Origin: Pseudomonas phage vB_PaeM_GXNNA8
Sequence record: PV400810.1
DNA length: 64,000 bases
Strand: one strand, 5' to 3'
A program made the translations under genes and the position numbers. Under the pieces are notes generated by a model. The model was not told the DNA's origin, made no database searches, and saw nothing but the letters and a program-made list of their open reading frames with translations. Below are positions 1,341 through 60,357 of the stretch, piece after piece. Numbering within the stretch: the stretch's first letter is position 1; each line of letters opens with the position of its first letter.

Positions 1341-4300
1341 TTATGCTGTTCTGCGTTGTTGCAGTAGGCGTTTGTTGCGTTCCACTTTAGCGTTCTCCAA
1401 CAGCACGTCAATGGTCATCATGCGATTCTGTTCCGGAGGCAACATCTTGGCTAACTTCCGAATCTCCACCTCTAGACGAAGTGCTAAGATATTGTCCTGG
1501 GTGCTCATCAGTTCTTCAGTTAGGCTGTGAACCTTACTCCGGACTTTATCGATGAGTTGAACCACGTACGGCTCATACTCGGTTCGTCCTTGGTTCTGGG
1601 CAGAGTTCAGTAAGTTGCGGGTGTCCGTTAGGGCAATCCCCGGAGGGATCCCGTACAAGGACTTGTTCTCCCCGAGCTTAATGAACCAGTAGCTCAGTAG
1701 CCACGCAATGACCAAGTCATCGTGCTGCTTCGCATCGTGGTCGATTCGATCCCCCTTGAGTTTCAGGTTGATCAATTCATCCGCGAGCTTCGCATAACAG
1801 AGGCCGTACCCGGTATTCCCAACCGCCTCTTGGATGAGGCCGTACAGGACGTCCCGACTGGTCTTGGTCGTTACGAACCCGAAGTATTGTTTATACTTCA
1901 GGTAGAACGCTTTATTCCGGTAAGCAAATTTGGTGTTCTGGACTTCCTCAAACTCCTTAGCGTTATTGACGGTGTCTTGGTAGATTTGGTTAAAGACCCG
2001 TTTAAAGGGGTCCATGCCCTTAGCCGGCAGCATAATCAACAGACTGTCGATCATGTGATGCGCGTAGTTACGCTCAATGATCAAGGTGCTGTTCTGAATC
2101 ACGTCCAGCAAATCCACAACAATGGCTGTGACATCATCCAAGAAGGTTAAGGGATATCGTCCCACCCCAATGACCTTACCCGTCTTCATACTGCGAATCA
2201 CAATGGTGCAGGCATCCTTGTTAATGGCTGAGGACGTATCCACACCAATCAGGAAATGGTCATTGTACTCCTTCTTTGCCATCTCCAACAATTCCTGTTG
2301 GGTCACAAAGAAGTCCACGTACAGGTTACAGTCCCGATATTCCTTACTCCACACCACGTCCCGCTTCATGTTGTTAATGGCTTCCCGGGTCACATCGTCA
2401 AACAACCGATTCTCCCCATCTTCCACCCACATGAGCAATAAGTCGATCTTGGCTTTCGCCAAACTCAATCCTAGCAGGTCAATGGTTTCCCGCACCCAGG
2501 CTTTGTCCTTACCCAGTTGAAGGTAATTGTACACCATGGAGACTGACGGAGAGGTTGTCTTCGTAGGGGAAGCCCTGAGTAACATCTGCCTCAAGTGACT
2601 CTCACTGAAGCAATCAAAGAACTTCTCCCGCCACTCCGTTGCACTCATGAGTTTATTGAACATAAACTCCCCGCTGGGATGGAGCGTGGTATTGGGGGTC
2701 GTAATGTGCGTAATCCCATACGGCAACCCCTGCTCTCTGCACAACGCCATTTCCGTTAGCGAGGACGGGGAACACCCGTCAATGATGGTGTCGATGAACC
2801 GAATATACCCGGACTCATCGTAGTTGGTAGTCCCTACCCGTAACCCCCGACCGAGATCCCCTGCTGCATCCTGACTGATCTGAGGAACGTTAATGTACAG
2901 CGTATTAACGTTATCTTCCCCAAAGGCCTTGTAGGTCAGACTGGTACCAGCATCCTTGTCCTTGTAGGTCGAGTTAATCAAATACGAGGGAATTGAACTC
3001 CGAATCTGTTTAATAGCCGCAATGAACTGAGCTCGGTTATCCGACTTCAAGGTAATCAAGTGGCTGGTATACCCCCGCCCCATGATGTACGTTAACCAGA
3101 AGTCAATCACCTGAACCGATACCGTGTTGTGGGTCACAATGAAGTCATCGGTCAAATACAACTGTTCACTGTTATCGACTTCAATACAGGTACAATCGTC
3201 ATCCCCTACGAAAGTCACCCGCTCGATCAGCAACCGATTATCAAAGACGACATTCTCTTCCCTGAACTTGAACGGAGGTACCTCTTCCGGTAGGGTAATC
3301 TCTACTCCGTTCTTGGTGACTTTACCGGTTCCACCTAGACTACGGGCTAAATACGCCAGTTGACCTCCTAGGACGCGATTTAAGGCTATAAAGACCTTAC
3401 CCCTACCAACCTTACCCCTAACGTCTAAAAACGCCTGTAAGAGGTCTCTCCGGGCGTTTAAAGGGGCTTCTAGGTATTGATCCGGTAAACCGTGTTCCCT
3501 GTTGAATAAATAAGGTTGGTTATCAGTCCGTTCTAAGCAACTGTTAGCCACTCCCTGAATAACTGTTACCCCCCGAGGGAGATGATCAACTACGTACTGT
3601 TTAACCGCATCCGTACGCGTGGGGATAATAACCTTACCGTCTTGATCTTGTCCGCAATAGATCAACCCGAGAACGTACGGGTCAATAGGTAGGTCCTGTT
3701 CACTCCCGGGTACCGGAGCCGGTAACGGCAATTGAAGTTTAACCTTCTTCTTCAACAGGTTAATGACATCAACGGTCGAATAGTCATTCCAGAGTGCACG
3801 TCCATTGAGGCAGTTGGAATAATCCTTCAAGGTCCACAGATGTTCAGTCCCTACGTCTGTAGCTCGTCCGTCACTGGTAATGACGCGATACAACCGGCGT
3901 TTACCCTGGGGATGAATACCAATCACCTGACACGGCTTCCCGGAACGGTCCAGGACTTGATCCCCCACCCGTAGGTGTTCGATCCGTTTCCAAGTATCCT
4001 GAGGGGTAATAGTCTTCAGGGTATCCTTAGGTACAATACGGACCTTAGCACTGTTACGCTGCTGCTTACCCTGTTGCCGCGGCATGATCATGTAGGTGGT
4101 AATGTGATTCAAATACGACCAAATAAAGCTGATATTCCCCCGGTTCGCTAAGAAGGGCTGATTCGGCTTTAACCGACAGACTTCCCGTAGGAAGTACCAA
4201 AAGTTACTCCGACACTCCTCCAGGACCCACACCTGTTGCTCAGGAGTGAGGTTAGGATCAAAGGGATCCACTCCTTTCAACAGGGGATTGTTCAATTGGA

Positions 4301-4607
4301 GAATAAAGTAAAAGTTATTGATTCCCTGTTGCCTGAACACTTCGGTGGTTCTGAGGAAACTGGTATTCCGGGTCTCCCGATCATAACCCGCTTGGTAGTT
4401 GAAAAAGTCCTTGAGAAAACGAACAGTCTTAATACCGCTTAAGCTGTCTTCATTGAAGTGAGCTAAAAGGGTTTCATCGTCTGTTCGAGCCTCCCAATCA
4501 ATACGGAGGCGTTTATCATCGATCAGTTCTTTGGGTAGGTTGTTACATCTCAGGTACTTAACCAACCATTTAGCATAGGAAAGGGATGTGTTCTGTTCGT
4601 CTGTCAT
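1341..4607 (-). CDS. terL: terminase large subunit (DNA packaging ATPase/nuclease), intein-containing precursor
   Basis: N-terminal NFWYFLREVC and MPRQQGK P-loop region resemble T4 gp17 (cf. CRDDIVYFAETYC ... SRQLGKT); C-terminal LIGVDTSSAINKDACTIVI resembles the terminase nuclease motif; 313-aa insertion ending VTHN|T. Confidence 0.8.
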   Translation of the reverse strand: MTDEQNTSLSYAKWLVKYLRCNNLPKELIDDKRLRIDWEARTDDETLLAHFNEDSLSGIKTVRFLKDFFNYQAGYDRETRNTSFLRTTEVFRQQGINNFYFILQLNNPLLKGVDPFDPNLTPEQQVWVLEECRSNFWYFLREVCRLKPNQPFLANRGNISFIWSYLNHITTYMIMPRQQGKQQRNSAKVRIVPKDTLKTITPQDTWKRIEHLRVGDQVLDRSGKPCQVIGIHPQGKRRLYRVITSDGRATDVGTEHLWTLKDYSNCLNGRALWNDYSTVDVINLLKKKVKLQLPLPAPVPGSEQDLPIDPYVLGLIYCGQDQDGKVIIPTRTDAVKQYVVDHLPRGVTVIQGVANSCLERTDNQPYLFNREHGLPDQYLEAPLNARRDLLQAFLDVRGKVGRGKVFIALNRVLGGQLAYLARSLGGTGKVTKNGVEITLPEEVPPFKFREENVVFDNRLLIERVTFVGDDDCTCIEVDNSEQLYLTDDFIVTHNTVSVQVIDFWLTYIMGRGYTSHLITLKSDNRAQFIAAIKQIRSSIPSYLINSTYKDKDAGTSLTYKAFGEDNVNTLYINVPQISQDAAGDLGRGLRVGTTNYDESGYIRFIDTIIDGCSPSSLTEMALCREQGLPYGITHITTPNTTLHPSGEFMFNKLMSATEWREKFFDCFSESHLRQMLLRASPTKTTSPSVSMVYNYLQLGKDKAWVRETIDLLGLSLAKAKIDLLLMWVEDGENRLFDDVTREAINNMKRDVVWSKEYRDCNLYVDFFVTQQELLEMAKKEYNDHFLIGVDTSSAINKDACTIVIRSMKTGKVIGVGRYPLTFLDDVTAIVVDLLDVIQNSTLIIERNYAHHMIDSLLIMLPAKGMDPFKRVFNQIYQDTVNNAKEFEEVQNTKFAYRNKAFYLKYKQYFGFVTTKTSRDVLYGLIQEAVGNTGYGLCYAKLADELINLKLKGDRIDHDAKQHDDLVIAWLLSYWFIKLGENKSLYGIPPGIALTDTRNLLNSAQNQGRTEYEPYVVQLIDKVRSKVHSLTEELMSTQDNILALRLEVEIRKLAKMLPPEQNRMMTIDVLLENAKVERNKRLLQQRRTA
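3126..4064 (-). mobile_element. intein inserted in the TerL Walker A motif (GK|T), about 313 aa, probable class 3 (WCT-type) with LAGLIDADG-like middle domain
   Basis: block A-like SAKVRIV...TWKRIEHLRVGDQVL, block B GTEHLW, block F DDCTCIEVD, block G FIVTHN followed by +1 Thr; the excised junction would restore PRQQGK-TVSVQ (cf. T4 SRQLGKTTVVA); N-terminal boundary approximate. Confidence 0.7.
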
Positions 4608-14557: not shown

Positions 14558-15013
14558 TCAATCTACAACCGTCATGTTGACAAAGGCACCTTCTTTTTCG
14601 AACTGCTCACGAAGGCTTCCTGTCACACAATGTTCGTAGGCTGTTTCTGTTCCGCTGTTCATAACTTGGATATAACCGCTTTTAGCCTTACCGTTATCAT
14701 CCACCCCGAGGGTATAGAACCAGTTACCCGTCGGGTTGGTTATGAAGACTTCACGGGTAGCGAGATTGGTCTCACGGTGGTAGGAGAACTGTTTACCCAT
14801 GTCATTCCCAGGCTTGGTAAAACTGACTTGGACTTTTTCCGGGTACCCGATGGTCAGGGTCCACAGGTCACCTTGAGGAATCTGGGTCAGCTTGACCTCA
14901 GCACCGTCCTTCAAGGTGCAGTTGAACATGATTTCTTCATTACCCGCCGCATTGGCCAGTTGCAAGAACAGGAAAGTGAAGACGGTTGAAATAGACAGGA
15001 AAAACGTTTTCAT
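14558..15013 (-). CDS. small secreted/periplasmic protein with signal peptide
   Basis: N-terminus MKTFFLSISTVFTFLFLQLANAAG is a typical Sec signal peptide. Confidence 0.5.
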   Translation of the reverse strand: MKTFFLSISTVFTFLFLQLANAAGNEEIMFNCTLKDGAEVKLTQIPQGDLWTLTIGYPEKVQVSFTKPGNDMGKQFSYHRETNLATREVFITNPTGNWFYTLGVDDNGKAKSGYIQVMNSGTETAYEHCVTGSLREQFEKEGAFVNMTVVD

Positions 15014-15075
15014 GGAGTATCCTCATGTGTGCGAAAGTACATCCTTGTGGATGTTGGGTTTCATTCGTTTAGGTG

Positions 15076-15597
15076 TTAAGCAGACTCCCCCCAACCAAAG
15101 AACCCTGATAGTGCTTTAGACGGGGGTATTCCCTTTGGGGTTTTTATGATCTTCTCTTCCTTGTTCTTATCCTGCGTGCTCCGGTTCACCTGTTGAATCA
15201 AGCGACGGAGACTGATACCGATGTTCTCTTCGATATCATAATCCGTAATCGCCAGACTAAATTGGGCGATTGAGAGCCGACTTCCTCCCAACATAAAGTC
15301 TAAGGCAGGGTTAGCGTTATACGCCAAGGCAAACTTGGATCCGGTCTTGTCACGACCGTTATGTTCGAAGATCACCACAGTACCGCAGTCCGTACCGATC
15401 AAAATAAGACGACGACCTGTTTTAGGATCCAGTGCTTTAAAGACCTTACCCACTGGGAGTTGAAGTCTTACAGCACCCTCGTACATATTCCCTGAGCTCC
15501 TCCATTCGGGATCAAAAGCCATTGAGTTATCTATGCGGGCTATCACGTTTTCGAAACGTTTAGCCAACTCAAGACTTTCGTCTAGTATCGCCAGCAT
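15076..15597 (-). CDS. hypothetical protein (173 aa)
   Basis: RBS AAAGGAGG upstream; promoter-like motif 45 nt upstream. Confidence 0.5.
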   Translation of the reverse strand: MLAILDESLELAKRFENVIARIDNSMAFDPEWRSSGNMYEGAVRLQLPVGKVFKALDPKTGRRLILIGTDCGTVVIFEHNGRDKTGSKFALAYNANPALDFMLGGSRLSIAQFSLAITDYDIEENIGISLRRLIQQVNRSTQDKNKEEKIIKTPKGIPPSKALSGFFGWGESA

Positions 15598-15639
15598 AGA
15601 GCATATCCTCCTTTAATTGACTAAGGAAACCAATGCCTT

Positions 15640-15668
15640 ATTCACCCTAGTGATATAGACCTCAAAGA
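15640..15668 (-). promoter_or_regulatory. early-promoter-like motif (minus strand TTTGAGGTCTATATCACTAGGGTG)
   Basis: member of a 7-copy motif family; lies between an upstream terminator and the 15597 gene start. Confidence 0.4.
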
Positions 15669-15692
15669 ACATGCAAGTTAAAATACGACAAC

Positions 15693-15724
15693 CTACTGCC
15701 TAGCCCATTACGGCTAGGCAGTAG
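15693..15724 (-). terminator. hairpin terminator downstream of tmk
   Basis: 13-bp stem ctactgcctagcc/ggctaggcagtag. Confidence 0.45.
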
Positions 15725-15733
15725 TGACGTGTT

Positions 15734-16387
15734 CTAATATTTATTACACAGGCGTTCCAGATAGGTGGTCATTTGATTGAACACCTCGTCTTCACTCACG
15801 GTGGCGTCAATGAGCGCACAGTCACGGCCTGTTTGCCCCATGCGTCGATACGCTGTACGGGCCTTTTCATAGAATTCAACCGTTTGAGAATCCAGACGGT
15901 TCATACCACCCCGTTGATGGACCCGGTCCAACACCACCTCAACCGGTGCATCCAGAATGAACGTAAAGTGAGGCCAGAAGTCTTGGGTCAGTAAGCGGTG
16001 TAACTCCAGGATTTTCCCTACCCCCAATCCCCGGGCTTCCCCTTGGTACGCTATGGTCGTATGCACATACCGATCACAGAGTACAAACTTCCCGGCTTGC
16101 AAGCTGGGTTTAACCAAGGTTTCAAGGTGTTGTACCCGAGCCGCATTGAACAACAGGAGTTCCGTCATTTGGCAAGGGCCTTCTTCACCCTCATCCAGCG
16201 ACAGGAGCAATTCCCTGATACGGTTACAGTACGGAGTCCCACCTGGTTCTCGGGTCTTAACCACATCCACACCACGTTCTACTAACCAGTTCGCTATGCG
16301 ATTAACAACAGTGGTCTTACCCGTTCCATCCAACCCCTCCACCACACAAAACATTCCGGAGTAGAGACTAGCGAAATTCATAGTCAT
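15734..16387 (-). CDS. tmk: thymidylate kinase (dTMP kinase)
   Basis: P-loop EGLDGTGKTT, REPGGT and DRY motifs of the Tmk family. Confidence 0.85.
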   Translation of the reverse strand: MTMNFASLYSGMFCVVEGLDGTGKTTVVNRIANWLVERGVDVVKTREPGGTPYCNRIRELLLSLDEGEEGPCQMTELLLFNAARVQHLETLVKPSLQAGKFVLCDRYVHTTIAYQGEARGLGVGKILELHRLLTQDFWPHFTFILDAPVEVVLDRVHQRGGMNRLDSQTVEFYEKARTAYRRMGQTGRDCALIDATVSEDEVFNQMTTYLERLCNKY

Positions 16388-16563
16388 TTCCCGATTTTTA
16401 TTTCAAAGTTGAATCGCTTGGGTTTCTCATACGTCTTGAGGATACCTGCGTCCCCTTCAGGTCTGCTGGGGTCGTACGGACGGCGTTCTTCAGGAATATG
16501 ATCGTAAACCTTACCGAGGGATTCCAGCAGTTTACGGTCGATTTTAACATCGTTGTTAGCCAT
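16384..16563 (-). CDS. small hypothetical protein (59 aa) translationally coupled to tmk (ATGA overlap)
   Basis: ATG at 16563 with GGAG 9 nt upstream; TGA stop overlaps the tmk ATG; below the ORF-track length cutoff. Confidence 0.35.
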   Translation of the reverse strand: MANNDVKIDRKLLESLGKVYDHIPEERRPYDPSRPEGDAGILKTYEKPKRFNFEIKIGK

Positions 16564-16586
16564 AACGAATACTCCAGTGTTGTAGG

Positions 16587-17504
16587 CTACTCTCTACTCC
16601 GTAAGATATCATTAATCACACCCAAATAAACCCCCTTAACTTCTTCATAGTCATTCATCCAGTAACCGGATTTCCTCCTGATGATACCCTGGGTGATCTC
16701 ATGCAGTGTTCCACCAAGATCATCTTCTATCTCTAGGTCTTTAGGGGTGGGCAACCCTACCAATAACCTCATCGCAGGGGTGGAGTCTTTCAAACGAAAG
16801 ACAAAGCGTTGAGTCGGTAGAGGAATACCTGCCCTTTCCCACTCTACCTCCTTCTCCTTAGAGACCGTAAGGACCACTTCATCGTTCTCTTTTAGAGTAT
16901 ACCAATGTGAAATGAGATTGGGGAGTACTAGCTCTTTCAATTCCCCGGGAAGATCGTTGTAAAGGATTCGCTTAGGGACATCCCACAATGGGGCTATAAA
17001 TGGCCGACAACCTATGTCCGTGCCCGCCAATTTACCGAGTGTGGCGGGAAGATTCAACAGTACCTGGTAATCTGATTCACTCCATTCATTGATGTTTAAC
17101 GTGTGTTCTGAGGTGTCTTCCTGTATGAACCCTATCCACGTACTGGGGAATAGGTGAATGTTACTCCGAGACGCCTGCATCATCCCCAATACCACATTCA
17201 GGGATTGATTAGCAATATGAACGAATGGACTCTGTCTGTTGCTATCAATGGTGTAAATGGAAGGAACGGCCATACTCGTGTCCATCATCACGAAGGTCTT
17301 TCCAATGGACCCTGGGTAGTCATCCGTGTGATCTCTGAAATAGTCTTCCACTTTAGCGAGTGCCATTAATTCCACCAAGGTCACGCATGCACTACCCGTG
17401 GCATTCACCAAGCAAGGATTCACTGTATGGCCTGCTTTCATGGCTTTATGATACATCGCCACAGATTCCACCCCACCACTCCAAGCCAAATTAATAACAG
17501 CCAT
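16587..17504 (-). CDS. PP-loop ATPase-like protein (adenine nucleotide alpha-hydrolase superfamily; QueC/GMP-synthase-like N-terminus)
   Basis: N-terminal INLAWSGGVESVAM matches the SGG[VIL][DE]S PP-loop signature; remainder not assignable. Confidence 0.4.
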   Translation of the reverse strand: MAVINLAWSGGVESVAMYHKAMKAGHTVNPCLVNATGSACVTLVELMALAKVEDYFRDHTDDYPGSIGKTFVMMDTSMAVPSIYTIDSNRQSPFVHIANQSLNVVLGMMQASRSNIHLFPSTWIGFIQEDTSEHTLNINEWSESDYQVLLNLPATLGKLAGTDIGCRPFIAPLWDVPKRILYNDLPGELKELVLPNLISHWYTLKENDEVVLTVSKEKEVEWERAGIPLPTQRFVFRLKDSTPAMRLLVGLPTPKDLEIEDDLGGTLHEITQGIIRRKSGYWMNDYEEVKGVYLGVINDILRSRE

Positions 17505-17513
17505 TCTCTTTCC

Positions 17514-17561
17514 TCCAAATAAATAAAGAAACCAGTAGGTAGGGGTATCCCCTACCTACTG
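17514..17561 (-). terminator. rho-independent terminator downstream of the 17571..17906 gene
   Basis: 13-bp stem cagtaggtagggg/cccctacctactg followed on the minus strand by TTTCTTTATTTATTT. Confidence 0.6.
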
Positions 17562-17570
17562 ATCGTCTGG

Positions 17571-17906
17571 TTATTGCGGTTGATAGTGAGCAATGATCTC
17601 TTTAAGTACCGCAGTGAGATCTTCCTCGTGGAAGGCGATCCGTTCTCGCGTGGACAGACTGATAATCCCCAAAGAGACATATTCACCCGTAGGGGTCAGT
17701 TTAGCCACCGGTGTTTCCCGGGATGGGAAATGGTAGAACCAAACCCCATTCGGACTGATAACGGCGGTCAACCCGTTACGACCTTCGGTCTGGTATACCG
17801 TGGGCGTTTGATCCTTCCCCTGTTCTTTAAGAACCTCCAACAGTTGGAAGAACGTGTCCAAAAGCGTCTTACTGGTTGCTTTGGTACAGAACGAATCCCC
17901 TCTCAC
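17571..17906 (-). CDS. hypothetical protein (111 aa)
   Basis: start overlaps the upstream gene stop (ATGA-type coupling); the mirror + strand ORF 17574..17909 judged spurious. Confidence 0.45.
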   Translation of the reverse strand: MRGDSFCTKATSKTLLDTFFQLLEVLKEQGKDQTPTVYQTEGRNGLTAVISPNGVWFYHFPSRETPVAKLTPTGEYVSLGIISLSTRERIAFHEEDLTAVLKEIIAHYQPQ

Positions 17907-18721
17907 TGACCCTGCCCCTTGATGATATCCACAATCTGGTCAATCCGGTTGATGATCAAACCTGACCAAGGTTCGAACCCAACGAGTTCACCGTCATCCG
18001 ATTTGATGGGGGCATCTTTGTTGGTATGCTGAGCGATCAACTCTTTGACCGTAAACCACCCCATATCCTTGTTGTTCACTTCGTTGGACATATCGAACGT
18101 GGTGTTGTGTTCCACCACCGGAACCAGACAGATAACACCGACGTGAATATTCCCAACGTACCCGGGCTCACCCTTATCCATTACGAACCCAATAGGAAAC
18201 GCCTTCTGAGTAACTTCTTCGGTGATATCACCCCGGTTAAATGAGTAGAAGGAGACCTCCTCCAGGAATTCACGACGGAGATTAGCCTCCACGGTATGAG
18301 CCCAATCGATCACCGAAGTTTCCCCGTAGAACTTATCAGCTTCCAGGTAGTGGGAAATGTCTTCCTTCTCGATATGACCCCCGGGGGCCAGGGACAAGCA
18401 GCTACTCAGGCGTTGATCCCCAGCTTTCTTGGTACGTTGATACACTGCGAACTCGATATTCCCATCGGTACTGATACGGTACGGGAGACCGTAGGCAATC
18501 CCTTGACGGAAGAGTTCATGCTGGTTGTTCAGGGAACGAACAGAACCCATGACCGCACTATCCAGTTCGTTCAGGATCTTGATGGTGGCTTCTTGCCCCA
18601 AGATCGTGGCCTCGTTAACAGGCACCAAGGCTTCAACACTGGGAGAATGAACCCCGTAGGTGAATTCACCGTACTTCTTGAATTCGTGCGACTCTTTAAC
18701 CACTTGTTTAGGGACGATCAT
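17903..18721 (-). CDS. hypothetical protein (272 aa) with a divergent Nudix-like element
   Basis: GGHIEKE ... RREFLEEVSF resembles GX5E...REUXEE but with a long insertion; weak. Confidence 0.5.
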   Translation of the reverse strand: MIVPKQVVKESHEFKKYGEFTYGVHSPSVEALVPVNEATILGQEATIKILNELDSAVMGSVRSLNNQHELFRQGIAYGLPYRISTDGNIEFAVYQRTKKAGDQRLSSCLSLAPGGHIEKEDISHYLEADKFYGETSVIDWAHTVEANLRREFLEEVSFYSFNRGDITEEVTQKAFPIGFVMDKGEPGYVGNIHVGVICLVPVVEHNTTFDMSNEVNNKDMGWFTVKELIAQHTNKDAPIKSDDGELVGFEPWSGLIINRIDQIVDIIKGQGQ

Positions 18722-18733
18722 GGAATAAACCTC

Positions 18734-19039
18734 TTAGTTGACAGTGGAAGTGGGGGGTGTTGCGGCTTTGAGTTTCTCTGAGATCTGTTCAAAGATCAGC
18801 GAGAGAGCTTTTTCAGTGTCCTTACGGCTAAACGGACTCCCTTCAATATTCACGGTGATATCACCGTCACTGGGGATTTCGATCGTGGCATACACCACAC
18901 CCTCCTTCCCCTGTTCAATGACAATGAAGGTTTCGAGATGCCCCATCATAACCCTCAAGGGTTTATATTCAAACGTCCGAATCACCGAAGGTTCAGCTTC
19001 CAGCGCCATCTCGAACGTGATGATGTTATCACTTAGCAT
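18734..19039 (-). CDS. hypothetical protein (101 aa)
   Basis: ORF in the operon. Confidence 0.45.
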   Translation of the reverse strand: MLSDNIITFEMALEAEPSVIRTFEYKPLRVMMGHLETFIVIEQGKEGVVYATIEIPSDGDITVNIEGSPFSRKDTEKALSLIFEQISEKLKAATPPTSTVN

Positions 19040-19041
19040 AT

Positions 19042-19713
19042 CTACCCCTCATGGTCTTGAAATCGGTTAGGCTGAATCATTAGGCGCGAGAGACCCTTCT
19101 TACCCAGCATGAACCATTGGATCTGTAACCCTATCCCTACAAGGTCCTCTTCCGTCAGGATGTCATCCATTACTTCGTACTTGAGGACCTGGTTTCCAGA
19201 ATGGATGCTCCCAATGAGGGCATCACTGTCCCCATTCACTACCGCGGCATACCAATCCGTATCGTTCAGGGTTTCAAAATACTCGTTTTTCGCACTGTAG
19301 TAACGGATAAGGTAACCCGTTTCACCCCGGATGGTCAGTCGAATCGTCCGAGACTCCGCCTCCCAGAAGGTCCCTTCCGCATCCGGTTCCGTAACGACGA
19401 TGTGACTCAGATGCTTTAACCCCCCTACCTCGATCAGTCCAGTGGGTTTAACCTTATTGATCTGATCTTTCAATTGGGTATGGATATCGGCCAACAACTC
19501 GGCATCTACGAGATCCACTCGGTAACTGGAGAATGAGAACCCAGTTGGACTATCTTCAATCCGAGCAATCGTCCCTTCTGCATTCCAGAGGGTAACCTCC
19601 CAGCCTTCACCCTTACGGGTATAATCAAACCGGAAATACAGGTTGTTCTTGATAGCAATAGGGATACCGCGTTGATTGTCCTCCCAATTGATGGCTTTAA
19701 ATAAACGTTTCAT
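19042..19713 (-). CDS. hypothetical protein (223 aa)
   Basis: ORF; RBS AAGGA upstream. Confidence 0.5.
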   Translation of the reverse strand: MKRLFKAINWEDNQRGIPIAIKNNLYFRFDYTRKGEGWEVTLWNAEGTIARIEDSPTGFSFSSYRVDLVDAELLADIHTQLKDQINKVKPTGLIEVGGLKHLSHIVVTEPDAEGTFWEAESRTIRLTIRGETGYLIRYYSAKNEYFETLNDTDWYAAVVNGDSDALIGSIHSGNQVLKYEVMDDILTEEDLVGIGLQIQWFMLGKKGLSRLMIQPNRFQDHEG

Positions 19714-19736
19714 CGCGAACAGTCCTTGGAATAGGG

Positions 19737-19756
19737 AAGGGGTAGTTGCCTACCCC
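19737..19756 (-). terminator. short hairpin (possible partial terminator/attenuator) between the 19766 and 19713 genes
   Basis: aggggtag ttgc ctacccct; no U-tract; only 24 nt from the next start. Confidence 0.3.
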
Positions 19757-19765
19757 TAGGTAAGA

Positions 19766-20140
19766 TTACTCTTGCGGAGGAATGAGGGTGGTACGGTTGT
19801 CGCAGTGTTCCTTGATGAACGACCGGTGGATGGCATAGGTGACCATAACCAAGAACTTCTCGAGATACTCGATGAGGTTCTTTTCGTCAACGCTGGATTT
19901 CGGTATCGAAAAGGTGATACCTTCGGAACGGGCGCGGTAATGCACCAGCAGTTCATCATCACGCTCGACGACGATGTCAGCAACCAACGCGCCCGGCCGC
20001 GCTTTCAGCTTGACCTCGCCGATGTAGAACTCGACGATCGACGCGTTCATCTGGAAGGTAAGGGTTTGGAGCCCGAACATCATCGCTTCGATACGCTGCT
20101 CCATTGGAGTCTCAGCCAAACTCTCTTGGGTGTATTGCAT
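19766..20140 (-). CDS. hypothetical protein (124 aa), GC-richer early-type gene
   Basis: ORF; elevated GC3 relative to neighbours. Confidence 0.45.
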   Translation of the reverse strand: MQYTQESLAETPMEQRIEAMMFGLQTLTFQMNASIVEFYIGEVKLKARPGALVADIVVERDDELLVHYRARSEGITFSIPKSSVDEKNLIEYLEKFLVMVTYAIHRSFIKEHCDNRTTLIPPQE

Positions 20141-20385
20141 TACTTAAGCTCCTTACAGTTGATGGTCAAGGTAACAAGACCTTTGGTGATGGATTTGCGG
20201 GCTTTGAGGTATTCCTTGCCTTGCGAGAAGATGTTGTTCTGCAAGCCGTGATGTTCAACAACCTGGCGCATGGCGGCCGAGCATTGAGTTGAATCATCCA
20301 ACAAGGTGGATGTTGTAGCAACGTTGTCGTTGTTACCCATGCTGAGGATGTTTATGGTGACCAACAGCAGTGCTTTCGCGCTCAT
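20140..20385 (-). CDS. small secreted protein with signal peptide (81 aa)
   Basis: MSAKALLLVTINILSMG N-terminus; overlaps neighbours by 1 to 4 nt. Confidence 0.45.
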   Translation of the reverse strand: MSAKALLLVTINILSMGNNDNVATTSTLLDDSTQCSAAMRQVVEHHGLQNNIFSQGKEYLKARKSITKGLVTLTINCKELK

Positions 20386-57534: not shown

Positions 57535-60357
57535 ATGTTAGGACTGTTTTCAGTTAAGATCAAACAAACGGGAGACTACGTACACATTACGGGTGTGTCC
57601 TATTACGATTTAGCCAAAGACATTGAGAAGTTCTACAGCACTTCTCTCTTAACGAAACATCAGATTCGACGCGAATCCTGGGACACCATTAAGGTGCATA
57701 ACTTCTTCCTGGTAGAATTGCACCACATTGTGGGGGAACTCCTCAAAATACGGAACCTTCGTACCCGCAGACGAGCGTTGAGTGAACTGAAGGAACTCAT
57801 TGAAACCGAGACCTGGATTAAAGATACGGTTAATCCGGGAGGTAAACCTTTTGATCTTAAGAAACTGAATCAATTTAATACGGTTCCTTTTCCTCAGCAG
57901 TTGGACTTCCTTCAGCAATACCCGATCATTGTGAACAGTTATCACTTGAAAGGGATGCTGCTGGATGCTAAACCAGGTTCAGGGAAAGCCATGCCACTCT
58001 CAACTCGGGTTAAGGTCCCGAATGGGTGGAAAGCCTTGGGTGACCTAAAGGTCAAGGATATCGTAGTGACCCCTGGAGGCGATACCGCGTGTGTGGAGAG
58101 TATTTACCCCCAGGGGATCACGGAAGTTTATCGCTTCTATTTCGAAGACGGTAGAACGGCTGACTCTCATCCGTATCATTTGTGGAAAACCACGGTGAAT
58201 GGGATCGATGAAATCTTAACCACGTTGGAAGTACTCCATAAAGCCCGTAAAGAGGATGTGTACTTCCCCTTAGTGGGTGAGATCAATGGATGCAACCCCC
58301 ATTGCGATACGTCTTCTGAAGTCGCTGCAAGGGAGCTGGTCAATACCGACGTTGTAATAGGGGACAACGTATTGGAGCTCCCGTATCGGGATCGCTTTAA
58401 TATAGTCACATCGGTGATTGAACACGTGGGGTGTTTAATCAGTGAATCCGTCTTATCCGCGTATCACGAGAACCGGATTGGGATGGAGAACTTCCGTCGG
58501 TTGATGTGGTCCATTGGAGGAACAGCTACGGAGCCGGTGTTGGTTAACGGTTTGTATAAGGTTGACTTTAAGCACCGAGACGTCGGCAAGATGATGACTG
58601 GGTTAATTGGAGACAATCCCCGTATTCAAGGAATGTATAACTTCTCCCAGTATGAAGACCTGCAACTGAAGCTGGCGTACTGGGAGAAAGTGGAGAATCA
58701 AGAGACTTGCTGCATTGCCTTGGATAATGACGAGAAGCTGTATGTGGTGGATGACTACATCGTGACCCACAATACCTTTACGTCCTTGGCGTGGTCTCAA
58801 TTGATCAATACGGCTCCGACGGTTGTCTTTTGCCCTATGAACATTGTGGATAAAGTCTGGGTAGAACAACCCCTCCAGCACTTTAAGGTTCCACCCCGTA
58901 TCTGGACCAGTATCAGCGGTAAGGTCTTAGAAGAAGGGTATGACTTCTACATCGTCCATTACGATTACATGACCAGTGGTATGGGGAAATACTTGGAGAA
59001 CTTCCTCATTACGCTGAGTAAGAAGCATAAAGGCGCTTTGAAGATGATTCTGGATGAATCCCAGAACTTCAATGACCCTAAAGCAGCCCGTACACGGAAG
59101 TTGATCGAATGGTGCGACATGGAACTGTTCGGGCATCACCTTCCGATGTCCGGGACCCCGCTAAAGGCTCAGGGGAGTGAGATCTTCCCAACGACCTGTA
59201 TGATCGATCCCTACTTCGATAAGAAGGCTCGGGAGTTCTTTATGGCGTCCTATGGTCGTAACCGTCCCTCGTTAATGGATTTACTGAGCCGACGTATCGG
59301 ACGTATGAAGTTTACGATCCCTGAACTGGTGGGATTGGGTGATCCTCCTCCTATGGAACTGGTTAAGGTGAAGATCCCGAATTCAGATCAATACACCTTG
59401 GATGCTATTCGCCTCCAAATGCAGATTTACATTGGAGAACGGATTGCGTTCTATACGAAGCATATGCCGAGCTTCCTGGAATTCTACAACGATGTTCTGA
59501 CGTCGTATGAATTGTCTATCCAGGGGAATGCTAAAGCGGTTGAGAATCTGGTGAAGTACAAACAGATTGTTCACCGGTTCAGAACCCGGGGGTACAACAG
59601 TTTTACGGATAACCAAGACAGTCAGTTCTGTAAGCGGGTGGAAGAAGACATCGAGAAGGGCCTTAAAGGGACCGCCCTGAAGGATTTCAGGAACATTAAG
59701 TCCGCGGTTAAGTACTTGGGTCTAAAACTGCGTGGAGAGGCCTTAGGGAACGTTTTAGGACGAGCCCGTATTAACGCTATTAAGGACACCATTGCGCACG
59801 CAGGACTCCCTGAGCTCATCGATAACGTGGAGAAGAAGACCCTGATCTTTACCTCCTACGTGGATGCCCTTAAACTCTGTGAGGAATACCTCACGAAGGT
59901 CGGGTATCCGAATGTGACAGTATACGGTGAAAACAGCGCCGAACGAGACGCCAATATCAAACGCTTTGAGAAAGACCCCACTCTCCGTGCGTTGATTGCG
60001 ATCTTTGATTCCCTGAAGGAAGGGTATCCCTTGATTATGGCGAACCTGACCATTCTGTTGAATGCGCCTTTCCGAGAGTATGAAGTGAAACAGGTCCAAG
60101 CCCGTACCTGGCGTACCGGTCAGGATGCTCCCTGTTACTTTAAACTCTTGGATATGGACACCGGGGATAAACTCAACATTATGACCCGCAGTATTAACAT
60201 CATGGAATGGTCTAAGGAACAAGTGGACATTCTCATGAGTAAAGAACAGGGTCATGAGTTGTTGGGTAATATCACCGGCCAAGAAATGTTTGATATGGGG
60301 GATGAACCTGAAACCCATTCTCTGTATACCTCCCGGAGTGTTCTTTCACTCTTTTAA
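57535..60357 (+). CDS. SNF2/DEAD-like superfamily II helicase, intein-containing precursor (940 aa)
   Basis: Walker A KPGSGK-[intein]-T; motif II ILDESQNF; motif III LPMSGTPL; C-terminal helicase motifs LIFTSY, LIMANLT, QVQARTWRTGQDAP. Confidence 0.8.
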   Translation: MLGLFSVKIKQTGDYVHITGVSYYDLAKDIEKFYSTSLLTKHQIRRESWDTIKVHNFFLVELHHIVGELLKIRNLRTRRRALSELKELIETETWIKDTVNPGGKPFDLKKLNQFNTVPFPQQLDFLQQYPIIVNSYHLKGMLLDAKPGSGKAMPLSTRVKVPNGWKALGDLKVKDIVVTPGGDTACVESIYPQGITEVYRFYFEDGRTADSHPYHLWKTTVNGIDEILTTLEVLHKARKEDVYFPLVGEINGCNPHCDTSSEVAARELVNTDVVIGDNVLELPYRDRFNIVTSVIEHVGCLISESVLSAYHENRIGMENFRRLMWSIGGTATEPVLVNGLYKVDFKHRDVGKMMTGLIGDNPRIQGMYNFSQYEDLQLKLAYWEKVENQETCCIALDNDEKLYVVDDYIVTHNTFTSLAWSQLINTAPTVVFCPMNIVDKVWVEQPLQHFKVPPRIWTSISGKVLEEGYDFYIVHYDYMTSGMGKYLENFLITLSKKHKGALKMILDESQNFNDPKAARTRKLIEWCDMELFGHHLPMSGTPLKAQGSEIFPTTCMIDPYFDKKAREFFMASYGRNRPSLMDLLSRRIGRMKFTIPELVGLGDPPPMELVKVKIPNSDQYTLDAIRLQMQIYIGERIAFYTKHMPSFLEFYNDVLTSYELSIQGNAKAVENLVKYKQIVHRFRTRGYNSFTDNQDSQFCKRVEEDIEKGLKGTALKDFRNIKSAVKYLGLKLRGEALGNVLGRARINAIKDTIAHAGLPELIDNVEKKTLIFTSYVDALKLCEEYLTKVGYPNVTVYGENSAERDANIKRFEKDPTLRALIAIFDSLKEGYPLIMANLTILLNAPFREYEVKQVQARTWRTGQDAPCYFKLLDMDTGDKLNIMTRSINIMEWSKEQVDILMSKEQGHELLGNITGQEMFDMGDEPETHSLYTSRSVLSLF
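57988..58773 (+). mobile_element. intein (262 aa) in the helicase P-loop (GK|T), probable class 3 (Ala1, WCT-type), paralogous to the TerL intein
   Basis: AMPLSTRVKVPNGWKALGDLKVKDIVV (block A with Ala1), HPYHLW (block B Trp), QETCCIALD (block F Cys), DDYIVTHN|T (block G). Confidence 0.7.

What the first reader, a model, noticed from the sequence alone, without database searches (positions are those of the whole stretch)
3126..4064. Intein in the terminase large subunit P-loop (PRQQGK|intein|T), apparently class 3 (no N-terminal nucleophile, WCT signature)
The 1088-aa TerL contains a 313-aa insertion ending FIVTHN followed by Thr. Removing it restores PRQQGK-TVSVQVIDF, which aligns with the T4 gp17 Walker A SRQLGKTTVVAIF. 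The insertion has intein blocks A, B (TEHLW), F (DDCTCIEVD) and G, and LAGLIDADG-like segments (VLGLIYCGQDQDG, LQAFLDVRGKV). Its first residue is Gln rather than Cys/Ser. The Trp, Cys and Thr occupy the class 3 WCT positions, a class best known from actinobacteriophage proteins.
Basis: partly seen in the sequence, partly recalled or inferred. Interest (0 to 1): 0.65.

Follow-up and report, generated by a model that had tools for sequence, protein, structure and literature searches.

The report
Class 3 intein in jumbo-phage terminase
The DNA-packaging motor gene of this Pseudomonas phage EL-like jumbo phage is interrupted, exactly inside its ATP-binding loop, by a 313-residue self-splicing protein element (a class 3 intein with a decayed homing endonuclease); it is real, but it is an ordinary example of a well-described kind.

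Summary
ORF 1341-4607 (-) encodes a 1088-aa large terminase (TerL), 98.8% identical in DNA to Pseudomonas phage EL gp011. Residues 182-494 (window 3126-4064) are an insertion between Lys and Thr of the Walker A motif PRQQGK|T.

Intein-less homologues (Vibrio phage VP4B, Pseudomonas phage OBP, Kosakonia phage Kc263) read PRQxGK-TV with a gap matching the insertion exactly. In 107 TerL homologues with an insert at this site, block B His75 and Trp77, block F Cys293, block G Thr311-His312-Asn313 and Thr+1 are invariant. Residue 1 is non-nucleophilic in 105 of 107.

These residues align one-to-one with Trp67/Cys118/Thr137 of the solved class 3 DnaB intein 6BS8. An AlphaFold model (pLDDT 96.9) matches PI-SceI, class 3 DnaB inteins and I-DmoI. 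Among EL-like isolates the intein is under purifying selection (pN/pS 0.04-0.09).

One refinement: the LAGLIDADG domain has lost both catalytic aspartates (Gly138, Arg216), so homing is probably dead. The intein appears fixed in the EL/RisingSun clade.

Class 3 inteins in phage TerL P-loops are published. I also recall this one being listed in InBase (from memory, unverified). Splicing itself was not tested. Low novelty.

The parts
1341..4607 (-). TerL precursor ORF: 1088 aa plus stop, 124.9 kDa. It is the equivalent of Pseudomonas phage EL gp011/ORF011.
4065..4607 (-). N-extein, aa 1-181. It ends with the first part of Walker A, PRQQGK (window 4065-4082).
3126..4064 (-). Intein, aa 182-494 of the precursor (intein residues 1-313, 35.2 kDa).
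3729..4064 (-). N-terminal Hint half (intein residues about 1-112; blocks A and B). Gln1 is at 4062-4064. It contains an 11-residue loop (VPKDTLKTITP) that most relatives lack.
3834..3842 (-). Block B His75-Leu76-Trp77 (B:10 to B:12). Trp77 is the W of the WCT triplet.
3261..3728 (-). LAGLIDADG-type homing endonuclease domain (intein residues about 113-268; boundaries approximate). Motif helices lie at 3648-3680 (PYVLGLIYCGQ) and 3414-3461 (LNARRDLLQAFLDVRG). The catalytic Asp positions are Gly138 and Arg216, so the domain is predicted inactive.
3126..3260 (-). C-terminal Hint half (intein residues about 269-313; blocks F and G).
3186..3188 (-). Block F position 4 Cys293 (precursor Cys474), the predicted initiating nucleophile.
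3126..3134 (-). Block G Thr311-His312-Asn313 (the T of WCT, the penultimate His, and the terminal Asn that cyclises).
3123..3125 (-). Thr+1 (precursor Thr495). It is the C-extein nucleophile and also the Walker A Thr of GK-T.
1344..3125 (-). C-extein, aa 495-1088: the rest of the ATPase domain plus the nuclease domain of TerL.

Best explanation
The 313-residue insertion is a functional class 3 intein that carries a degenerate LAGLIDADG homing endonuclease domain. It sits between Lys181 and Thr495 of the Walker A loop (PRQQGK|T) of the terminase large subunit of an EL-like jumbo phage. The 124.9-kDa precursor cannot bind ATP because its P-loop is split. Inferred mechanism, by analogy with characterised class 3 inteins: (1) block F Cys293 attacks the Lys181-Gln182 peptide bond and forms a thioester-linked branched intermediate, helped by His75 and the Trp77 pocket. 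(2) The N-extein is transferred to the side-chain oxygen of Thr+1. (3) Asn313 cyclises and releases the 35-kDa intein. (4) An O-to-N acyl shift makes a normal Lys-Thr bond, which gives the 89.7-kDa active TerL with an intact Walker A. The endonuclease domain has lost the catalytic acidic residue of both LAGLIDADG motifs. The element is therefore probably no longer mobile and is inherited vertically in the EL/RisingSun/FishSpeaker clade, where every relative found carries it. What is shown: anatomy, homology, fold, conservation, purifying selection, and presence/absence polymorphism. What is inferred: that splicing occurs, its chemical route, and that the endonuclease is inactive.
For: Coordinates and junctions are exact. 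The gene is TerL (phrog_2 E 5e-48), and its Walker A aligns to T4 gp17. Intein-less homologues have a precise 313-aa gap at GK|T. USC-1 (+) and VP4B (-) share 88% extein identity; N1M2 (+) shares 78-80% with Kc263 and OBP (-). The insert alone has homologues (28-39% identity over 92-100% of its length) inside other ATPase, helicase and nuclease genes: SNF2 helicases, Cas4/RecB, mycobacteriophage terminases and PhoH. That is the behaviour of a mobile intein family. In 107 TerL inteins at this site His75, Trp77, Cys293, Thr311, His312, Asn313 and Thr+1 are invariant (His312, Asn313 and a Thr/Ser/Cys at +1 were part of the extraction pattern). Residue 1 is M/L/A/F/E/Y/G/P/Q/D in 105 of them. Trp77, Cys293 and Thr311 align to Trp67, Cys118 and Thr137 of Msm DnaBi1 (6BS8), whose WCT roles are experimentally established; its C118A mutant is splicing-dead (PMC6195587, PMC2807308). 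The AlphaFold model has pLDDT 96.9 and pTM 0.93. Foldseek matches PI-SceI (7e-13), VMA inteins, class 3 DnaB inteins (about 1e-6, TM 0.71-0.75 on the target) and I-DmoI. Purifying selection acts on the intein among EL isolates: 40 synonymous against 7 non-synonymous differences versus phiRU, pN/pS 0.054. Across the clade the Hint halves are better conserved than the endonuclease part. Both catalytic Asp residues are lost here (Gly138, Arg216). Only 14 of 107 inteins, all from distant clades with longer inserts, keep both, and 13 of those 14 have a precomputed Pfam LAGLIDADG_3 hit. TerL is essential, and seven independently isolated EL-like phages carry the same intein at 97.8-100% protein identity.
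Against: No experiment shows splicing of this protein. Curated intein profiles barely see it: Pfam Hom_end_hint scores E 6e-4, below its cutoff, and NCBIfam gives nothing. The class 3 chemistry is inferred from sequence signature only. Two of the 107 homologues begin with Cys or Ser, so residue 1 is not strictly constrained. The endonuclease part still shows few non-synonymous changes among isolates (pN/pS 0.085 versus phiRU, small counts), which does not fit a completely functionless domain. Asp140 and Asp142 lie just after the first motif, so residual metal binding cannot be excluded.
Confidence: 0.85

Rival explanations
1. It is an intein that splices, but not by the class 3 route. For example, Thr+1 could attack the N-terminal junction directly (class 2, KlbA-like), with Cys293 playing only a structural or coordinating role.
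For: No chemistry was tested here. Residue 1 is non-nucleophilic, which also fits class 2. Block F position 4 has a coordinating role (as Asp) in class 1 and 2 inteins (PMC6195587).
Against: Class 2 inteins lack the WCT triplet (PMC2807308). Here the triplet is invariant in 107 homologues. It aligns to the catalytic residues of a solved class 3 intein whose Cys-to-Ala mutant is splicing-dead.
Confidence: 0.06
2. It is a domesticated or dead insertion that is not removed. TerL would either work with the 313-residue domain in place, or this ORF is not the active terminase.
For: All 85 closest relatives (53-74% identical full-length TerL) keep the insertion, and the endonuclease is degenerate. 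No splicing data exist.
Against: The insert splits GK|T of the P-loop, which is incompatible with nucleotide binding. The residues that stay invariant while the rest falls to about 25% identity are exactly the splicing residues, including the terminal Asn and Thr+1. The phages are viable and have no second TerL hit (one place per record). Comparable TerL inteins of mycobacteriophages splice efficiently (PMC5050341).
Confidence: 0.04
3. It is a still-mobile homing intein whose endonuclease is active despite its atypical motifs.
For: The endonuclease region folds confidently as a two-motif LAGLIDADG domain. It shows few non-synonymous changes among isolates. Synonymous divergence versus phiRU is higher inside the intein (pS 0.18) than in the exteins (0.07-0.09), which could reflect gene conversion. 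Asp140 and Asp142 follow motif 1.
Against: The canonical catalytic positions are Gly138 and Arg216, and the second motif has no nearby acidic residue. No intein-less allele was found in the clade that could serve as a target. Intein and extein identities fall together across the clade, as expected for vertical descent.
Confidence: 0.1

Closest known systems
Class 3 inteins: prototype mycobacteriophage Bethlehem DnaB intein (Tori et al. 2010, PMC2807308); solved examples Msm DnaBi1 (6BS8) and MchDnaB-1 (6RIX/6RIY)
   Same: Non-nucleophilic residue 1. WCT triplet at B:12, F:4 and G:5. THN C-terminus. Thr at +1. Insertion in an ATPase P-loop. These are the best mini-intein hits by both sequence and structure.
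   Different: Different host protein (TerL, not DnaB). It carries a LAGLIDADG-fold domain, whereas 6BS8 and 6RIX are mini-inteins. About 12-13% identity over the structural alignment. It has no equivalent of the redox partner Cys48 of DnaBi1: Leu58 aligns there (my reading of the alignment).
Mycobacteriophage TerL1-a P-loop inteins and class 3 TerL/Cas4 inteins of actinobacteriophages (Kelley et al. 2016, PMC5050341; bioRxiv 10.1101/2025.01.02.630785)
   Same: The 'classic' insertion between the invariant Lys and the nucleophilic Thr of the TerL Walker A. Class 3 Hint domain plus LAGLIDADG endonuclease. Direct homology: mycobacteriophage Phrappuccino/Settecandela terminase and Cas4/RecB inteins match at 27-28% identity over about 95% of the insert.
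   Different: The host is a Gram-negative nucleus-forming-type jumbo phage with a very divergent TerL that no Pfam terminase model detects. The endonuclease here is degenerate, and the element looks fixed in its clade rather than sporadic.
PI-SceI (VMA1 intein) and other endonuclease-bearing inteins (PI-PfuI, Tli/Pho VMA)
   Same: Same two-domain architecture, with a LAGLIDADG domain inserted into a Hint domain. These are the top structural matches (E 7e-13, TMq 0.64-0.68).
   Different: Those are class 1 inteins (Cys1 nucleophile, Asp at F:4) with active endonucleases and an extra DNA-recognition region. Identity is only about 13-15%.
Other inteins of phage EL itself (ORF039, ORF040, and the SNF2-like helicase inside this window)
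   Same: Same intein family: profile E 9e-87, 1e-68 and 4.5e-37. All have Cys at block F:4 and end THN|S/T. Two of them sit right after a GK of a P-loop.
   Different: Different host genes and lengths. The SNF2 intein is 262 aa with a shorter middle domain.

Membership tests
Intein (Hint-domain protein-splicing element) | In-frame insertion in a conserved host protein, with homologues that lack it precisely at the same point | tested here: met
   VP4B, OBP, Kc263 and P0103/P0111/P0116/P0119/P0120 read PRQxGK|TV with a gap matching the 313 aa exactly. Extein identity across +/- pairs reaches 88%.
Intein (Hint-domain protein-splicing element) | Hint fold with splicing blocks A, B, F and G, a C-terminal His-Asn, and a nucleophile (Ser/Thr/Cys) at +1 | tested here: met
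   AlphaFold pLDDT 96.9. Foldseek matches PI-SceI at 7e-13 and DnaB inteins at about 1e-6. phmmer matches gp41-1 at 7e-7. H312-N313|T495.
Intein (Hint-domain protein-splicing element) | Match to curated intein profiles at their own thresholds | tested here: not met
   Pfam finds only Hom_end_hint, 20.3 bits against a cutoff of 32.1. NCBIfam finds nothing. Family members do reach LAGLIDADG_3, Hom_end_hint, Hom_end, Hint_2 and Hint. This is a sensitivity limit of the profiles, not a defining biological feature.
Intein (Hint-domain protein-splicing element) | Protein splicing actually occurs (ligated exteins plus free intein) | not testable with these tools
   Indirect support only: the essential gene has a split P-loop in viable phages, the splicing residues are invariant, and pN/pS is 0.04-0.09.
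Class 3 intein (Tori et al. 2010) | No Cys/Ser/Thr at intein position 1 | tested here: met
   Gln1. 105 of 107 homologous TerL inteins also start with a non-nucleophile.
Class 3 intein (Tori et al. 2010) | WCT triplet: Trp at block B:12, Cys at block F:4, Thr at block G:5 | tested here: met
   Trp77, Cys293 and Thr311 align to Trp67, Cys118 and Thr137 of 6BS8. They are invariant in 107 of 107.
Class 3 intein (Tori et al. 2010) | Ser or Thr (rarely Cys) at +1 | tested here: met
   Thr495. Thr in all 107 extracted inteins, though the extraction pattern required Thr/Ser/Cys at +1.
Class 3 intein (Tori et al. 2010) | Obligate block F Cys nucleophile and a block F branched (thioester) intermediate | not testable with these tools
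   Needs C293A/S and T+1A mutants and analysis of intermediates.
LAGLIDADG homing endonuclease (active) | Two LAGLIDADG helices packed as a pseudo-dimer (fold) | tested here: met
   Helices 129-137 and 202-216. Foldseek matches I-DmoI at 7e-4 and the endonuclease domain of PI-SceI. 20 of 49 family members hit Pfam LAGLIDADG_3.
LAGLIDADG homing endonuclease (active) | Catalytic acidic residue at the C-terminal end of each LAGLIDADG helix (the ..GDG / ..DxDG positions) | tested here: not met
   Gly138 and Arg216 occupy these positions, whereas Miami/N1M2-type relatives have GDG and DTDG. So this is not filed as an active endonuclease.
Terminase large subunit (T4 gp17-like) | N-terminal ASCE ATPase with Walker A, plus a C-terminal RNase H-like nuclease, homologous to known TerL | tested here: met
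   phrog_2 E 5e-48. The profile hits T4 gp17 3EZK/3CPE at E 1.8e-7, with both the Walker A region and the nuclease region aligned. It is syntenic with virion structural genes.

The most novel reading that the evidence does not exclude
The intein is not just a stranded parasite. It would be retained across the whole EL/RisingSun clade of jumbo phages as a post-translational switch. Splicing, which depends on a catalytic Cys within a Cys291-x-Cys293 pair, would gate when TerL becomes ATPase-competent. That would tie DNA packaging to the redox or compartment state of the infected cell, as proposed for the mycobacterial DnaB class 3 intein. The low non-synonymous rate in the catalytically dead endonuclease domain would then reflect a new structural or regulatory role.
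Probability: 0.06. Interest if true: 0.55.

Novelty: already known. Interest (0 to 1): 0.15.

Why it matters
The main value is for annotation. GenBank AJ697969 calls this gene a 'putative ATP-dependent DNA helicase'. That is most likely because BLAST matched the intein to intein-containing helicases. RefSeq calls it TerL without marking the intein. Several relatives are labelled 'DarB-like antirestriction', 'gyrA' or 'helicase' for what is probably the same reason. Marking the intein gives the true 775-aa TerL and prevents misleading phylogenies and length outliers.

The finding also adds a data point on the intein life cycle. A class 3 intein is fixed in a whole jumbo-phage clade with its endonuclease decayed, while sister clades still show presence/absence polymorphism and intact endonuclease motifs. 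It does not open a new question: class 3 inteins in phage TerL P-loops have been described since 2010.

Tried and rejected
1. Curated profile searches on the insert and on the whole protein found almost nothing. Pfam gave only a sub-threshold Hom_end_hint match and NCBIfam gave nothing. This reflects profile sensitivity and is not evidence against an intein.

2. A word-seeded protein search with the intein alone returned only 11 PhoH-family intein hosts and not even the self hit. Searching with the full TerL worked and returned 741 hits.

3. phmmer of the spliced TerL against PDB sequences found nothing. A profile of intein-less homologues was needed to reach T4 gp17.

4. Literature searches for an explicit description of the phage EL TerL intein found none. 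The supplement of Tori et al. 2010 and the paper Tori & Perler 2011 are not held. The InBase listing therefore rests on my memory.

5. I considered a different N-terminal boundary, because a block A-like 'KDTL' lies 13 residues in. I rejected it: intein-less homologues fix the junction at GK|T, and relatives lack the 11-residue loop VPKDTLKTITP.

6. I considered a redox partner equivalent to Cys48 of Msm DnaBi1. Leu58 aligns there, so there is none (my reading of the alignment).

7. I looked for a third intein in the window with a family HMM over all six frames. Only TerL and the SNF2-like gene matched.

8. Model coordinates are not exposed, so I could not measure the distances from Cys293 to the splice junctions.
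Full report
**What is there**

The window is an EL-like jumbo phage. ORF 1341-4607 on the minus strand encodes 1088 aa. It is 98.8% identical in DNA to gp011 of Pseudomonas phage EL (NC_007623, Elvirus), and 97.2-99.0% identical to six other EL-like isolates. PHROGs assigns the protein to the main terminase large subunit family (phrog_2, E 5e-48).

PRQQGK ends at residue 181. The insertion runs from residue 182 to 494 (313 aa, window 3126-4064) and ends FIVTHN, and residue 495 is Thr. Deleting it gives a 775-aa protein reading MPRQQGK-TVSVQVIDF.

**Is the host site really the Walker A loop?**

The spliced protein alone finds nothing in the PDB. A profile of 14 intein-less relatives matches T4 gp17 (3EZK/3CPE, E 1.8e-7). 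It aligns 'qpRQtGKsvs' to 'LSRQLGKTTV', the gp17 Walker A, and it also aligns the nuclease domain.

**Is it an insertion, and is it mobile?**

tblastn with the spliced TerL finds 313 phage records.
- Some carry the gene in one piece of about 2.3 kb: Vibrio phages VP4B and pTD1, Pseudomonas phage OBP, Kosakonia phage Kc263, Edwardsiella phage pEt-SU and others.
- Others carry it in two pieces spanning 3.15-3.4 kb.

In a protein alignment the intein-less genes read PRQ[QS]GK|TV with a gap that matches the 313 residues exactly. Presence and absence separate very close exteins. USC-1 (+) and VP4B (-) are 88% identical. N1M2 (+) is 78-80% identical to Kc263 and OBP (-).

The insert alone matches 414 phage records at 28-39% identity over 92-100% of its length. 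The matches lie inside unrelated genes: SNF2 helicases, Cas4/RecB nucleases and mycobacteriophage terminases. It also matches PhoH ATPases from metagenomes. A segment that moves between different P-loop proteins and is precisely present or absent is an intein, not a lineage-specific domain.

**Class assignment**

I extracted 107 inteins at this TerL site from a search of 5.8 billion proteins.
- The first residue is M, L, A, F, E, Y, G, P, Q or D in 105 of them, and Cys or Ser once each.
- His75, Trp77, Cys293, Thr311, His312 and Asn313 are invariant in all 107, and Thr+1 is too. His312, Asn313 and a Thr/Ser/Cys at +1 were part of my extraction pattern. Trp77, Cys293 and Thr311 were not.

phmmer against PDB sequences gives gp41-1 (E 7e-7) and then the class 3 DnaB inteins 6BS8 and 6RIX/6RIY. 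In those alignments His75, Trp77, Cys293, Thr311, His312 and Asn313 fall on His65, Trp67, Cys118, Thr137, His138 and Asn139 of Msm DnaBi1. Kelley et al. 2018 identify exactly Trp67/Cys118/Thr137 as the WCT triplet, and they show that C118A is splicing-dead (PMC6195587).

Tori et al. 2010 define class 3 by three features: a non-nucleophilic residue 1, the WCT triplet and Ser/Thr at +1. [quoted passage not shown] All three sequence criteria are met here. The chemistry itself cannot be tested with these tools.

Gly72 is at B:7 and the Thr is at B:8, which is normal for class 3.

**Fold**

An AlphaFold model built on a 49-sequence alignment has pLDDT 96.9 and pTM 0.93. Foldseek against the PDB gives these matches:

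| Match | E-value |
|---|---|
| PI-SceI | 7e-13 |
| Tli/Pho VMA inteins | 1.0e-11 to 1.8e-8 |
| PI-PfuI | 1.4e-8 |
| Class 3 DnaB inteins (TM 0.71-0.75 on the target) | about 1e-6 |
| I-DmoI (middle domain) | 7e-4 |

The architecture is a Hint domain with a LAGLIDADG domain inserted into it.

**The endonuclease is degenerate**

The two LAGLIDADG helices are residues 129-137 (PYVLGLIYC) and 202-216 (NARRDLLQAFLDVR). Relatives such as Klebsiella phages Miami and N1M2 have the canonical ...LLGDG and ...LLDTDG endings. The window has Gly138 and Arg216 at those two catalytic Asp positions.

Only 14 of the 107 inteins keep both Asp residues. All 14 are longer (346-363 aa) and come from distant clades, and 13 of them have a precomputed Pfam LAGLIDADG_3 hit. 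None belongs to the EL clade. I infer that homing activity is lost.

This agrees with three other observations:
- Every one of the 85 closest relatives (53-74% identical full-length TerL; contigs up to about 240 kb) carries the intein.
- Intein and extein identities fall together across the clade.
- The intein evolves faster than the extein (for example 37% against 66% versus RisingSun), and its endonuclease part evolves fastest.

**Is it still functional?**

Among EL-like isolates the intein shows strong purifying selection. Versus phiRU there are 40 synonymous and 7 non-synonymous differences (pN/pS 0.054). The range over four isolates is 0.00-0.09, similar to the exteins.

TerL is essential, each genome has a single TerL locus, and the P-loop is split. 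The element therefore has to splice out for the phage to package DNA. This is an inference, supported by efficient splicing of mycobacteriophage TerL inteins (PMC5050341).

Two observations stay unexplained. The dead endonuclease domain also shows few non-synonymous changes. Synonymous divergence versus phiRU is about 2-3 times higher inside the intein than in the exteins, which may reflect mosaic recombination. Counts are small in both cases.

**Mechanism proposed**

This is inferred from class 3 precedent.
1. Cys293 attacks the Lys181-Gln182 bond and forms a thioester branch.
2. The N-extein is transferred to the Thr495 hydroxyl.
3. Asn313 cyclises and releases the 35.2-kDa intein.
4. An O-to-N shift restores PRQQGK-T in an 89.7-kDa TerL (masses).

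**Comparison with what is known, and novelty**

Class 3 inteins, P-loop GK|T insertion ('classic' site TerL1-a) and class 3 LAGLIDADG inteins in TerL and Cas4 are all published (PMC2807308, PMC5050341, bioRxiv 10.1101/2025.01.02.630785).

I found no open paper that mentions the EL TerL intein, and neither GenBank nor RefSeq annotates it. From memory, InBase lists 'PhiEL ORF11, ORF39 and ORF40' inteins. I could not open that source.

The recollection did make a testable prediction, and it held. EL ORF039 and ORF040 are annotated, like ORF011, as 'putative ATP-dependent DNA helicase'. Both contain inteins of this family (profile E 9e-87 and 1e-68, ending THN|S and THN|T). I therefore rate the finding as already known. 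At most it is an unannotated member of a known kind.

**Verdict**

The added findings are the degenerate endonuclease and the clade-wide fixation. Interest is low (0.15).

Noticed in passing
window 57988-58773 (+), inside ORF 57535-60357 (+): A second intein of the same family sits in the window. It is 262 aa and interrupts the P-loop of a 940-aa SNF2-like helicase (DAKPGSGK|AMPLSTRV...YHLW...ETCCIALDNDEKLYVVDDYIVTHN|TFTSLAW). It has Ala1, HxW, a block F Cys and THN|T, the class 3 signature. The profile built from the TerL inteins matches it at E 4.5e-37.
   Followed up: partly
L014 (AJ697969.1) 14709-17819 and 17889-20171; outside the window: Phage EL ORF039 and ORF040, both annotated 'putative ATP-dependent DNA helicase', each contain a related intein (profile E 9e-87 and 1e-68, ending THN|S and THN|T). 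ORF040 is interrupted right after GFGK. An EL-type genome therefore carries at least four inteins of this family.
   Followed up: partly
window 1341-4607 (-) and its homologues in public records: The intein appears to drive mis-annotation of TerL. Records label the gene 'putative ATP-dependent DNA helicase' (EL, RisingSun, Joad, phiKT1019), 'DarB-like antirestriction' (several RefSeq records), 'gyrA: DNA gyrase subunit A' (ZPAH34) or 'DNA helicase/terminase'.
   Followed up: no
window 3126-4064 (-) compared with L011 (phiRU): Synonymous divergence between the window and phiRU is about 2-3 times higher inside the intein (pS 0.18) than in the flanking exteins (0.07-0.09). Versus EL, HHBS8_1 and IR-QUMS the endonuclease part is almost identical (pS about 0.01-0.02) while the N-terminal Hint part is not (0.10-0.16). 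This mosaic pattern suggests recombination within the gene, but counts are small.
   Followed up: no
window 4029-4061 (-), intein residues 11-21: The window's intein has an 11-residue loop (VPKDTLKTITP) between block A and the conserved Trp25. RisingSun has a comparable but shorter (9-residue) extra loop there, and FishSpeaker, Miami, USC-1, N1M2 and D6 have none. The model's confidence dips slightly there (pLDDT about 91).
   Followed up: no
PQ516283.1 (Pseudomonas phage vB_PQ1), homologue of window 1341-4607: In this 184-kb record the TerL match is broken into 4 pieces annotated as separate hypothetical proteins, and the intein into 2 pieces. This looks like frameshifts or assembly errors rather than biology.
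   Followed up: no
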